Shown in pieces: positions 28,901 through 34,900 of a stretch of DNA of 64,000 bases. The notes beneath the pieces are model-generated. The model ran no database searches. It was not told the DNA's origin and saw only the letters and a program-made list of their open reading frames with translations. This stretch comes from Leucoraja erinacea (Eukaryota). Every line of letters starts with the position of its first letter. The first letter of the stretch is position 1. The stretch lies in the NCBI RefSeq assembly GCF_028641065.1, contig NC_073411.1:14074001-14138000 (forward strand), written 5' to 3'. The position numbers were made by a program, and so were the translations under genes.

Positions 28901-31900
28901 TTTGTAGGTTTATAGAAAGTTGTTTATATACATACATTGCTATTTATGCAATTTGTTAAAAACAGAATAGTCACAGTGGTCCATTTGGAAATCAATGTTG
29001 AATATGGACATTTATTCAAGGAAGATTGGATATTTATTATATGAGCAGATTGCAAATTCAATTTTTACATTCAAATTATTGTCTACAGTTGTCATAAAAG
29101 AGGAATTAGTTGAGAGAGTAACTACTGAATGTTTTTAAAGGGCCCCACTGCTAATTCCCATACCGACCTCTCTGTCCTGGGCCTCTTCCACTGCCAGGGT
29201 GAGGACACATGCAAACTGGAAGAACAGCATCTCGTATTCTGTTTCGGCAGCTTACAATCCAATGGTATGAATATTGAATTCTTAACTTTCAAAGTAAACC
29301 TGCCCCCGCACCTTTCTTTCCAATGCCCCATCATCTAGTTCCTTTCCCCTCTTCCATCTCCACCTTCTGCTTATCTCCCACTCTTCCCTTGTCTGGATCC
29401 TCTACATTCTCTATCCCCACACCCCCATACTCTGCAGCATGTCCCTGTAATCATAACTATTCCACATCCATTTATATCTGATTGTGCAGTCAATTCATGT
29501 AGCTCACTGTGACTAATTTGCTTTTTTTTCCAGACACAATGCCTTCAAGCTTGCACTACTTGTGTCCTTCCCCTATCGCTCGATACTCCGTCCCTGCCTT
29601 GTAGATTCCTGTCTTTTGTTTGCATGCACGTATTACAGATATTAGGTATTACCTGTCAGTCCAACGGCTATGCCACCACAATAAACTGTGCAGTTGCTAG
29701 GACTGGATTGATTGACAACTTCTTCATAGGACAGCTGTTTGGTATTTGCTGTAAAATGGAAAACTTGCATGTTAAAATAAATGCCATAATCACAGCCACC
29801 GAGATATTTTTTAATCTATTTCTCCAATAATCACAAAACAAGCCTTCAGAATGACAATTTTAATTTCACATGGTTTGTCATGACATTATACAATTCAAGA
29901 ACTGTTTTTTAACAAAACTCCACAATACTAACTGTGTGAAGCTGCTCATCAGGCCCATCATACTATTTGATATTTATGAACACATCTAATTACAAAGTAT
30001 ATTTATGCTGTTAAAACACATGAAATTCTATATCGCACTATACTGCTCGTTTCACATACGTTCTGATGTAGTCTTTGGTGCTGGAGGCTTGCGAGTTGCC
30101 CAATTTGTTCGGATCTGCCTTCCTCCAAGCCACTGCCCACCCATCTGTTGAATGGCATTCTCAGCATCCTGACATAAAATGAAAACAAGCCGTCAGAAAT
30201 GGATGAAACAATCAAATTACAGCATTTAGCAACAAAGTTGGAGAAAGGTGATGGGTTTTTTAGCATTGGGCATCAGCAAACACTTCCAGTAAATCTGACA
30301 AGGATCTGCCACTCCAGTTCTTTCAGCGTGTCCTTGCAGCGTGTAGCAATGCTCATCCAACCCATTTGCCCAATACACGTCTCTTCCAATGGAGATCACT
30401 AGGACATTAGTGATAGTAGAATTAGGCCTCTCGGCCCATCAAGTCTACTCCGCCATTCAATCATGGCTGATCTGTTTCTCCCTTCGAACCCCATTCTCTT
30501 GCCTTCTCCCCAAAACCTCCGACGTGTGTACTAATGAAAAATCATCAGTCCTTTCTTTGTTTAGGAAATTATTCTTTCATTACTTTGATTACACAATTAG
30601 CGCACATTGGAAGGGATATAACAAAAATATAAAACAGTTAAGGCGACTTTGAGAGGTGAAAACTGCAATAGATATGGCAGAACCATCAGTGTTGTCAAAA
30701 AATAAAAGGTCTGCCAAAGGAGGCCAAACATGCAAAGTTATTTTAAAATGCAGTTTGAGAAGATTGAATACTAACATCCGATAAGCATTATCAGAGCCCG
30801 CAAGTAGTAACAATCATAGTTTGCATGAGTCTTTACAAGTTATGAGCGATCCAAGTTTTCTTCTTAGTCATGGAATTTTTGAAAACATTAATCAGCTGAC
30901 AAATGAACTAGTTTCATAACAGCAAATTGTACCAAATATAAATGTTCTCTTACCCACTTATTATAGAAGGATACAAAACCATACCCTTTGGATTTTCCTG
31001 TCGCCAAATCTTTAACCACTCTAGCATCACTGAAAATATAAATAAATAAGGCATAATAAATACATTTCTTGCTGGAATAAGTTTACTGTAGAGAATAAAA
31101 GACAGGAACCACACACACACACACACAATGCTTATTGTCAAGACATCACATCTCACCTTTGCAAAAGGAACCACTTAATGCAAGACACCATATTCTACAA
31201 AGCACTTTTCTCCATTATAAAATGTACTACATCTTGATCTGCTAATTCAGTTACAACAACTATAACGTGGTAAACATGCAAACTGTGACTGCGCTGGCTA
31301 ACATACTTACAGGCGTTTTTTCGTTTTAAAAGCTATTCAAATAGTTTGTAAGTTCATTCATTGTAAAAAATAAAAAAAAGCTAACTGCCTGCTAGGCATG
31401 GTCAAAGTAGCCATTCCTAGTTGAATAAGTCACCAGGCCAAATCAAAGAAAAAAAGTTTAGATTGAACAATTCATTGAATGGCTTTCCTTAACCATGCAC
31501 AATACATAGTACTTGTTGCCAACAAGTATTCTACCTATTCTTAAAAATACAGTATATGAAATAGAAAAAAAACTAGAAAAATAAAAAATAGGAATTAAAA
31601 GGCATACATCGCCTGTTAACAATTCTTTTAGTTTCTCGGTAGGGTGAATTCGTTACCCCCTTTTTGGACTGTGGGCAGCTGTAAATTTTGAGAAATTGAG
31701 ATTTTCAGAAACGGTTGCAATATTCAGAGAAAACTAATAAGATACTGTATTTCCAAAATTGTTAACAGAACTACGCAGACTAGAATATATGAAAAGTGCA
31801 TTATATACAGACAGGATCAGATCACTAAAGAGTCGATCGTGAACTATTTTAAGTAAAATTGAAAAAAAACAAAGTTAATTATCTGTTTACAAAGACAAAA

Positions 31901-34900
31901 GGAAATAAGAAAACTACAACTGAGTGAACGATTATCCACTGTGACAGTCCCTTGTGTTAGCCATGGAAATCCTGTCCATTCTTCAGAGATATTCTGTAAA
32001 ATAACCACAGCCCTATTATTTGAAATTGATTCAGAACCCATCTATGGTGTATCTTCTTTTGCCCCAATTATTGGTAATTATGTGAATGTCCAGGTTAAAT
32101 GTTTCTCAGGTGATTTGTTAACTCATAATTTTATAAATATGCTTTTCAAAAAAATCTATTATGAATAGCTAGTATGAATAAATTGCTTTTTTTACCTTCA
32201 GTTGTGAATGCTTTGGGAACATCTATGACATGCTTCTGTATAAAATGCATTTGGAGTCCATGTTTAACATGAGATTACCATGCAACCGCACGTGAAAATA
32301 TCAACTCTGTGTGGATCAAGAGTAGAGGACACAAACTGTCTGTGAGGAGGTGTTGTTTGATCTTGTACGAGTACTGCTCCATCACTTTAAATCTAATATC
32401 TGGCTTGATTTTGTTGACCCACATAGACTGGATTTTATCCTACATCCAAAGAAACCCCAATAATATTATTAGCACCCATATTTTATTTAAGTAAAATGAA
32501 GCTGTGATGTAATGAACAATTAATCAGTTTTTTTAAAATATGATTTAACTTGGGAAAACAATATGAAATTTCATATTAAAATTAATTCCAGGTTCCAATG
32601 CCACACAGCCCCCATGCTAAAGAGATGCATGGTTGGTCCCCTCCCAGCTGCACAACGTTGCTCAACCAATCTCATTCAAGGCATTTTCCAGTGGCACAGG
32701 GTTTTTACCCATTCAAACCTTCTCACTTCAGCATATCACCACCAACCATCTTTCTCAGATCAGTTTAGAAACTTACCACTGTTTATTGATGACAGAATCC
32801 CTATATGGAGGTTCCAAATCCAGTTTACACCCACAAAACTAATTTGCAACAGTTACTGAAGTATGTGTTAATTTGCTGGCTTTACAAATCACCATTATTT
32901 TATACCATAGCCCCTTTGTTTTGTTATTATCGGTGATGCAGGAATGTAGTTTTTGTCAATAACCCATCTTAACAATGTAACCTGCTTGATAGCTTTTATC
33001 TATCAACATCACGAGCTGATGCCAGAATGCCTCCAAGAAGCTAAAAATAACCAACGACAACTTTAGCAACAGTACTTTTTGCTACTACCTGACCACATCC
33101 ATGTAGGCCAACAAATAACACCTTCAAGCTCAAATGGATGAATGTTTGACATTATAAAACTCAGATTGAAGCCAAGACTGTAATGCTGCACTAGATGTTA
33201 ATATAGTATTAAAAATAATCAATAACCTGTACCTTCTACATGGAACAGACGGGCAGCATTCTGCAAACACAGTGAAGTGAAGGACAACGAGAGGAATGCA
33301 TTAAAATTCCTAGAGCCCTTTGAGTATTGGGAGGTTATTTCAACCATCAAATTACACACCCTTCGCGAGAACACCTTCAAAACATTCAATACAAACATAC
33401 ACAGATTATTTTTTTACTTCAACGCAGAAATGCTTCTGCAGTCTTCCAAAGGAAAGAAGAGTTAGTTTAATATTTGAAGTTAAGGTAAGTTATGTGAGAA
33501 AGCTAAATGATCCCCCCTCAAAACAAATCTGGAAAAAATGCCAATATATTTTGTGCCTTGCACAACATGCTTTGCTTCACTACTTAGAACATTTAAGATA
33601 TTATATTACTGGAATACACAGAAGATTACAAAGTTCTGCAGTGACGATGGTCTCCACATTGTGCAGTTCCAATGATACACAATCAAAAGGTGACATACCC
33701 CATGGAGATATAAGTACCAAACTTCTCTTAAATGTCTGGATCACTGCAACTCAACAAAATGCCAATGACCCAGCTACAACTGCAATATTTTACAATCACA
33801 AAGTCTAAACCAAATAATTAAATAGAAGTGGTTTCAATGGTGGGTGAATGCTTTCATAGAGATAAATAAGCTTCCAATTACATGGTAGGGTAGCATATCA
33901 CGATATTTGACCCCAGTTATGTATTAAAAAAAAATCAAACAGGATTTTCTTGTTAAGCTTGAAACTCCTGTATGATGAATTTGTAATAAACCCAGACACA
34001 AAACAGTACAAAAAATGTAAACATTACACTTTTAAGTTAAGGAATGTACATAAATAAGAGCCTGCCTTTCCAAACCATAACACTCTGGCTTATGCTGACA
34101 ACGGTATGAAGGTTCTGCTAGAAAGCTGTGACTTGCAAAAGGTGAAGATTAACAGCTCGTTTATCAAATACCATTCCCAATATTCAAGGAAAGAGTTGTA
34201 AGGTGTGTTTGGAGAATTAATATAGCAAAGGACGTGAATCCATGCCCAAGCTTTTGCTCACACACTTGGCATGTACCAGAGGGGCACTGGATATCCATTC
34301 CGACACAATCTCTTCATTGTGCAGATGCAAAAGGCTCTTCAAGGATCCTCACCTGTGCTATTCTCTTCCTGAAGAAAAACGTGATGACTATAACATTCAC
34401 TCTGCCATCTTTTCCTCCCACCGAAAAGTAGATATTTTTTGTGTTTATCCTATCGACCATCGAGTTTGTGCCATATTTGGAATACCTTTCTTTGCGTTCT
34501 CTGTAAACAATTCTGTTTTGTTCTTCAGATGTACAACAGTGATGACGGATGTCCTGAGGAGGCCACCCACAGGCTTCAGTAACCTCACTAAGTGGCACCA
34601 AATGTGGTAACTGAAATTTCACTGTACTTTAATTGGTATATGTGACAAAAACTGACCTTGTAACCTATACCTGTCAGCAAGCCATTACTGGCCACCTCCA
34701 TTAGCTTCAGGTTGGCGCAGTCTGCGAGACAACAAAGCAAGCAATAAGAAGGAAACAACCACTTCACATCCTTGGCATTCAGCTGGAACCCAGGCAATTT
34801 CCCTTTGCTAGAAGGGTAACTAGGCGGAGACCAGGTTTCCTTAAGAATCAGCGCGGGAATCTGTGCAGGAATTGGGTGAAATCTTAAATGAATATTCGTG

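What the first reader, a model, noticed from the sequence alone, without database searches (positions are those of the whole stretch)
31860..32000. Conserved TIA1 poison exon (6A-like) in a cartilaginous fish
Seen: a good acceptor (ggttattttacag) whose inclusion after ..FGRIS reads [15 protein letters not shown], then a weak donor (CA|GTTGTA) and a long U-rich tract. Established: TIA-1/TIAR activate weak 5' splice sites followed by U-rich stretches, including PTC-containing exons in their own intron 6. Recalled, unverified: the human truncated isoform ends ..GRISVSLKNGQNCPG*, almost the same peptide. Inference: the AS-NMD autoregulatory loop predates the chondrichthyan/bony-vertebrate split.
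Basis: partly seen in the sequence, partly recalled or inferred. Interest (0 to 1): 0.75.

Follow-up and report, generated by a model that had tools for sequence, protein, structure and literature searches.

The report
TIA1 poison exons shared with TIAL1
Inside an intron of the RNA-binding gene TIA1, this cartilaginous fish keeps two short stretches that match stop-causing optional exons annotated in birds and mammals and that also sit in its sister gene TIAL1, so this likely self-limiting splicing switch probably predates the duplication that made the two genes.

Summary
The host is TIA1 of a cartilaginous fish. An acceptor at 31993 opens 11 new codons and a stop; mouse, primate, bird and lizard database isoforms end with a matching 11-residue tail, as human exon 6A is described (PMC4286123). 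A second cassette (6B, 31678-31608) lies 242 nt downstream; its donor is joined to exon 7 in 1 of 4 runs laid. And both cassettes are kept in the TIAL1 paralog of the same genome (79% and 84% identity, with splice sites and U-rich tails), while other introns hardly align. Paralog-specific letters match bony vertebrates, so the module likely predates the TIA1/TIAL1 duplication. Differences do not favour third codon positions, pointing to RNA-level constraint. Not shown: inclusion of 6A (no joint listed; exon 6 was outside the laid stretch), its exact donor, NMD, or control by TIA proteins in fish. The circuit is known from human cells; its depth and retention in both paralogs I did not find in 10 paper searches, but the key 2001 paper was not held. 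No earlier scan note on this gene was found.

The parts
25840..48499 (-). Host gene TIA1, 12 coding exons, 378 aa
   Evidence: Open gene model; 362 of 368 residues identical to a ray TIA1; TIA1 side of the tree
38823..38910 (-). Constitutive exon 6 (first half of RRM2)
   Evidence: AG/GT bounded, in frame
31994..32027 (-). Acceptor region of exon 6A
   Evidence: 23 of 30 upstream letters shared with TIAL1; 17 letters across the acceptor invariant
31921..31993 (-). Exon 6A, predicted 73 nt: 11 codons, stop at 31959-31957, then 36 untranslated nt
   Evidence: 59 of 75 identical to the TIAL1 copy; tail matches 31 database isoforms; end inferred
31862..31920 (-). Weak donor of 6A (inferred) and U-rich tract
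   Evidence: 3 of 11 consensus matches, U 0.60; motif shared with TIAL1 and compatible with finch, snake and cod read-through models
31679..31711 (-). Acceptor region of exon 6B
   Evidence: 28 of 30 upstream letters shared with TIAL1
31608..31678 (-).
   Evidence: 61 of 73 identical to the TIAL1 copy; donor joined to exon 7 in run X7; 7 database isoforms continue from exon 6 into its peptide
31557..31607 (-). Weak donor GAT|GTATGC of 6B and U-rich tract
   Evidence: U1 duplex -1.9, U 0.67, reached by 2 of 1221 intronic GT sites; 27 of 30 downstream letters shared with TIAL1
30954..31029 (-). Constitutive exon 7
   Evidence: In frame; joined to exon 8, to 31608 and to 32196 in run X7

Best explanation
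TIA1 intron 6 of this cartilaginous fish holds two conserved cassettes, 6A and 6B, each ending in a weak donor followed by a U-rich tract and each also present in TIAL1, and they likely act as poison exons: TIA1/TIAL1 protein would bind the U-rich tracts, recruit U1 snRNP, force inclusion, and the premature stop would send the mRNA to nonsense-mediated decay. Shown: the anatomy, the stops, the homology to amniote isoforms, the twin copy in TIAL1, and one use of the 6B donor in a relative. Inferred from human work: TIA binding, feedback and decay. Inferred from the distribution: the module arose once, before TIA1 and TIAL1 split, and has been kept in both.
For: 6A adds a stop 678 nt before the last junction, with 6 junctions more than 50 nt downstream; 6B alone frameshifts to a stop 376 nt before it; in TIAL1 both carry in-exon stops about 670 nt before it. 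The two donors are the weakest and the most U-rich of the gene's donors, in both paralogs. The 6B block is the best-scoring collinear match between the paralogs (174 bits; best coding exon 140); intron 6 scores 198 against a shuffle maximum of 34, the other 7 intron pairs 23-38 against 22-32. Of 309 proteins fetched, 210 show the exon 6 end; 31 continue with a 6A-type tail and 7 with a 6B-type tail, in both TIA1 and TIAR of amniotes and in wrasse TIAL1 (cod TIAL1 fits too, score 62 against null maximum 46). Third codon positions differ at 6 of 32 codons in 6A+6B against 95 of 197 in coding exons (p 0.002), and first/second positions differ more. Human exon 6A is reported as induced by TIA-1 overexpression (PMC4286123, passages, citing Le Guiner 2001).
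Against: No 6A joint in 4 runs; depth over 6A in the only raw-read run was about 1-2 reads, and exon 6 lay outside the stretch, so the test is weak. In X7 the contig with the 6B joint starts 11 nt upstream of the 6B acceptor and an unspliced contig runs through 6A at similar depth (39 against 47), which fits intron retention as well as cassette inclusion. None of the 38 tailed database isoforms is named as chondrichthyan, and they are mostly computed models. In human cancer cells the 6A form is reported as a stable 16 kDa protein, and human TIA-1 overexpression did not induce it (PMC4286123). CRISPRi of TIAL1 did not raise TIA1 in two human lines (PMC13648420, passages), against strong cross-regulation there.
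Confidence: 0.72

Rival explanations
1. The block mainly controls retention (nuclear detention) of intron 6: the 6B donor is spliced to exon 7 but the upstream intron stays, and 6A is rarely completed. Still negative regulation by splicing, but not chiefly by NMD of cassette-containing mRNA.
For: In X7 the intron upstream of 6B is covered at 28-44 while the part downstream is at 12 and constitutive joints at 155; X1 and X2 carry unspliced contigs through 6A. Retained-intron TIA1 transcripts are reported in human tumours (PMC7733475, passages; intron not named in what I saw).
Against: X1, X2 and X7 are contigs whose RNA status is a guess, and contig depth is a poor measure. NMD would itself deplete fully spliced forms. 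Both acceptors are as conserved as the donors, and database isoforms join exon 6 to 6A and to 6B.
Confidence: 0.14
2. Exon 6A is kept to make a short protein (RRM1 plus half of RRM2, 135 aa here) that acts as a dominant-negative regulator, as proposed for human sTIA-1.
For: The tail is 11 residues plus stop in TIA1 and TIAL1 of all in-frame isoforms seen, with a KNG-Q core; a 16 kDa protein is reported in human cancer cells (PMC4286123).
Against: Between the paralogs 4 of 6 differences in 6A fall on first or second codon positions (p 0.04 against coding exons), the 36 nt after the stop are conserved as well, and 6B keeps neither frame nor stop position.
Confidence: 0.08
3. The likeness between TIA1 and TIAL1 comes from later gene conversion in cartilaginous fishes, not from a pre-duplication origin.
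For: The two fish copies are close (79-84%), and share letters such as the final His-Gly.
Against: Each copy carries its own paralog's marks from bony vertebrates: S-L against I-A at the start of 6A, the stop after V-E-N only in TIAL1 6B, K-K-G in TIA1 6B, and the snake and cod TIAL1 read-through tails fit the TIAL1 copy (scores 86 and 62) and not the TIA1 copy. The genes lie on different contigs.
Confidence: 0.04
4. The block is a DNA-level element (enhancer) and the splice signals are incidental.
For: Duplicated conserved non-coding elements of vertebrates are often enhancers (established knowledge; PMC2781166 seen as search listing only).
Against: Conservation starts just before each AG and ends in the U-rich tail after each GT, on the sense strand, and the 6B donor is used.
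Confidence: 0.02

Closest known systems
Human TIA1 exon 6A / sTIA-1 (PMC4286123, passages seen; Le Guiner 2001, title seen in reference lists only)
   Same: Same gene and intron, 11 new residues then a stop; by eye 22 of the 28 human letters printed as siRNA targets match the window; mouse and primate isoform tails align 7 of 11.
   Different: Predicted 73 nt against 66, the difference lying after the stop; inclusion and regulation untested in the fish.
TIAR/TIAL1 alternative exons with weak donors and U-rich stretches (Le Guiner 2001 and 2003; titles seen, contents recalled)
   Same: Amniote TIAR isoforms end in 6A-type and 6B-type tails that map onto the fish TIAL1 copy.
   Different: The names 6A/6B for the second cassette are my labels; I could not read whether those papers noted homology between the TIA1 and TIAR exons.
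Ultraconserved element uc.313 in human TIAL1 (PMC7340126, passages)
   Same: Lies in TIAL1 intron 5/6 and overlaps an exon 6 of one RefSeq transcript, the expected place of this module.
   Different: Not aligned here; identity with the block is a lead only.
Poison exons of SR genes (Lareau and Brenner 2015, PMC4379411; abstract and Discussion read)
   Same: Highly constrained stop-carrying cassettes in RNA-binding protein genes, kept across vertebrates.
   Different: In SR genes the ancestral event was lost and replaced in paralogs after duplication; here both paralogs keep both cassettes.

Membership tests
TIA1 exon 6A | Host gene is TIA1, not TIAL1 | tested here: met
   98% to ray TIA1, 78% to TIAR; 22-row tree splits TIA1 from TIAR, 99 SH-aLRT; same downstream neighbour as a sheep TIA1 fused model
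TIA1 exon 6A | Lies between exons 6 and 7, adds 11 residues and a stop | tested here: met
   human description in PMC4286123
TIA1 exon 6A | Sequence homology to the amniote exon | tested here: met
   Mouse, primate, hummingbird and anole tails find 31992 as best place in the 7.8-kb intron, scores 37-47 against null maxima 26-33; by peptide and printed siRNA letters, not by whole-intron DNA
TIA1 exon 6A | Exon length 66 nt with the homologous donor | tested here: inconclusive
   Predicted 73 nt. A marsupial read-through model puts a GT-compatible Cys codon at nt 66 followed by Trp, which would fit a donor beginning GTTG as here, assuming no indel
TIA-activated exon | Weak 5' splice site followed by U-rich stretch | tested here: met
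   for 6A and 6B in both paralogs
TIA-activated exon | Inclusion rises with TIA1/TIAL1 and needs the U-rich tract | not testable with these tools
   Needs a minigene or knockdown
AS-NMD poison exon | Spliced into mRNA | tested here: inconclusive
   6B donor joined to exon 7 in 1 of 4 runs; no 6A joint listed; acceptor joints from exon 6 could not appear
AS-NMD poison exon | Stop more than 50 nt before a later junction | tested here: met
AS-NMD poison exon | Isoform rises when NMD is blocked | not testable with these tools
   No such data reachable

The most novel reading that the evidence does not exclude
A two-cassette poison module arose once in the single ancestral TIA gene and has been kept, splice sites and U-rich tails included, in both TIA1 and TIAL1 throughout jawed vertebrates: a shared dosage sensor for the pair and a counter-example to the turnover of poison exons after duplication seen in SR genes.
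Probability: 0.6. Interest if true: 0.55.

Novelty: new member of a known kind. Interest (0 to 1): 0.42.

Why it matters
It dates a known splicing feedback circuit. If right, TIA1 and TIAL1, a synthetic-lethal pair (PMC13648420, passage), have shared one homologous off-switch since before they split, unlike SR paralogs. The four-way alignment (two paralogs, fish and amniote) marks the few invariant letters around two very weak donors, which are direct targets for mutagenesis or splice-switching oligos. It also offers a cheap check on a 2026 preprint that explains NMD-dependent TIA1 rise after TIAL1 knockout by transcriptional adaptation and, in the passages searched, does not mention these exons, although its CRISPRi result argues against simple cross-regulation.

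Tried and rejected
Run search: no RNA holder listed on record; 14 rows are RNA by guess. Read lay covered 29500-33500 only, so the exon 6 to 6A joint was not tested; 178 loose-end rows were not shown. Exons 7 and 8 show no depth in three of four runs, so depth ratios were not used for those. An aligned GT at 31929 (64-nt exon) was considered as 6A donor: 2 of 11 consensus matches, +0.5 kcal/mol, less likely. A tree with three partial invertebrate outgroups placed them inconsistently; they were dropped, so the 22-row tree is unrooted and does not date the duplication. No lamprey, hagfish or invertebrate isoform with the tail appeared in three protein searches (120 of 351, 120 of 177 and 62 of 62 listed); this sets no upper age. 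Six other odd tails after exon 6 (P0140, P0142, P0147, P0161, P0171, P0253) did not map to either intron above shuffles; the marsupial and finch frameshifted TIA1 tails did not beat shuffles on the window either. Le Guiner 2001 and Aznarez 2008 were not held; the supplement of PMC4286123 could not be read and may hold the exon sequence; 4 of 5 supplement files of PMC3595034 hold no TIA1 or TIAL1. No AATAAA/ATTAAA signal between 6A and exon 7, so an alternative last exon was not pursued.
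Full report
Observation. On the minus strand the acceptor lies at 32006-31994 and the exon begins at 31993. Exon 6 (38910-38823) ends in mid-codon; the new exon then reads [11 protein letters not shown] and stops at 31959-31957. The candidate donor at 31921|31920 is the weakest in the gene (3 of 11 consensus matches, -1.8 kcal/mol against the U1 end; constitutive donors 5-8 of 11, -2.7 to -9.5) and is followed by 60% U at +7..+36, a level reached by 16 of 1221 intronic GT sites (consensus and U1 end recalled). 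The acceptor is moderate (pyrimidines 0.55 against 0.65-0.80).

Host gene. Twelve exons give an open 378-aa frame. It is 362/368 identical to a ray TIA1 and about 78% to TIAR proteins. In a 22-row tree without outgroups it falls on the TIA1 side with shark and ray proteins, support 99; a 25-row tree with three partial invertebrate rows was unusable for rooting. The C-terminal part of a sheep TIA1 fused gene model matches the window downstream of the gene (17394-9796), so the neighbour is shared. Earlier scan notes call this genome a skate (unchecked); my data say only close to a ray.

Homology to exon 6A. Human exon 6A is described as 66 nt between exons 6 and 7, adding 11 residues and a stop (PMC4286123, passages). 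By eye, 22 of the 28 human letters printed there as siRNA targets match the window. Among 309 proteins fetched, 210 show the exon 6 end; 31 go on with a 6A-type tail: VSLKNGQNCPG in mouse, catarrhines, deer and carnivores, a His variant in birds, a diverged one in anole, and IAHKNGQDLEG in turtle and bird TIAR. The TIA1 tails pick 31992 as their best place in the 7.8-kb intron, above 30 shuffles each. These are mostly computed isoforms; none of the tailed ones is named as human or chondrichthyan.

A second cassette. A genome search with the 6A region gave one other match, 80% over 130 nt, on contig C15. That locus is TIAL1 (93-94% to chondrichthyan TIAR). Comparing both genes shows collinear matches only at coding exons and at two blocks in intron 6 (scattered non-collinear repeat hits set aside). 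The second block is an AG/GT-bounded 71-nt exon, 31678-31608, which I call 6B. It scores higher than any coding exon (174 bits against 140), and a genome search finds only these two copies. Its donor is weak (-1.9) with 67% U downstream (2 of 1221). Seven database isoforms continue from exon 6 into its peptide: finch TIA1, ptarmigan and pig TIAR and four unnamed.

Age. 6A is 59/75 and 6B 61/73 identical between the paralogs, with flanks 23/30 and 21/30, 28/30 and 27/30; flanks of coding exons are about half identical, except after exon 3. Intron 6 aligns with score 198 against a shuffle maximum of 34; seven other intron pairs score 23-38 against 22-32. Each copy bears the marks of its own paralog in bony vertebrates (S-L or I-A in 6A; stop after V-E-N only in TIAL1 6B; snake and cod TIAL1 tails fit only the TIAL1 copy). 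Inference: both genes had both cassettes before cartilaginous and bony vertebrates split, and the cassettes descend from one pre-duplication module. That the duplication was a vertebrate genome doubling is recalled, not tested.

Kind of constraint. In seven coding exons 95 of 197 codons differ at the third position and few at the first two (18, 13). In 6A+6B only 6 of 32 differ at the third position (p 0.002), while 13 differences fall on the first two. 6B keeps neither frame nor stop position. This favours RNA-level over protein-level selection.

Consequences. With 6A the frame stops at 135 aa, 678 nt before the last junction; with 6B alone it shifts and stops in exon 9, 376 nt before it; in TIAL1 both stop inside the cassette. 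All meet the 50-nt rule for NMD (established knowledge).

RNA evidence. Four of 21 listed runs were laid on 29500-33500. Four joints were listed, all in run X7 (a related organism; contigs, RNA by guess): two constitutive (depth 155), 31608 to exon 7 (47.1) and 32196 to exon 7 (9.6). No joint used the 6A donor. Exon 6 was outside the stretch, so acceptor use was not tested. In X7 the 6B-joint contig begins 11 nt before the 6B acceptor and unspliced contigs cover the upstream intron at 28-44, which suggests retention or partial splicing. The raw-read run X21 has strand-biased reads over 31108-32045 but about 1-2 over 6A.

Mechanism. Most likely TIA1/TIAL1 bind the U-rich tracts and help U1 snRNP onto the weak donors (general mechanism in PMC2766253, passages), giving feedback through unproductive splicing. 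This step rests on human work: Le Guiner 2001 was seen only as a title and through PMC4286123. Against a simple picture: the 6A form is reported as a protein in cancer cells and was not induced by human TIA-1 (PMC4286123), and CRISPRi of TIAL1 did not raise TIA1 in two lines (PMC13648420, passages).

Literature. Ten searches gave no paper on the depth of these exons or their homology between paralogs. Seen as passages: PMC4286123, PMC8980049, PMC3390395, PMC9318959, PMC2766253, PMC7340126, PMC13648420, PMC7733475; abstract and Discussion: PMC4379411; supplements only (4 of 5 files): PMC3595034. The two Le Guiner papers may already note the homology. uc.313 lies in human TIAL1 intron 5/6 and may be this block.

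Verdict. A real and ancient orthologue of a known regulatory exon, richer than first described (two cassettes, two paralogs), with function inferred. New member of a known kind; interest 0.42.

Noticed in passing
window 41506-41476 (minus strand): The start of intron 3 is kept between TIA1 and TIAL1 (25 of 33): an in-frame stop, then a donor-like GG|GTGAGT about 24 nt on; several database models read into this stretch. Possibly another shared unproductive splice choice.
   Followed up: partly
window 32235-32196: A donor at 32196 is joined to exon 7 in run X7 (depth 9.6); a 40-nt exon here would carry a stop. No match in TIAL1.
   Followed up: partly
window 30415-30520: A high-copy repeat fragment in intron 7 draws most of the laid reads.
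   Followed up: no
window 39948-38911: A simple scan found no convincing 33-nt alternative exon 5 of the kind recalled for mammalian TIA1.
   Followed up: partly
window 17394-9796 (minus strand): Multi-exon neighbour gene matching the C-terminal part of a sheep TIA1 fused model at 51-77%; no Pfam hit for its large exon.
   Followed up: partly
window 31242-31643: In raw-read run X21 the intron downstream of 6B has strand-biased depth of 3-9, close to exon 9 (about 19 reads at one place); unexplained, could be retention or internal priming.
   Followed up: no
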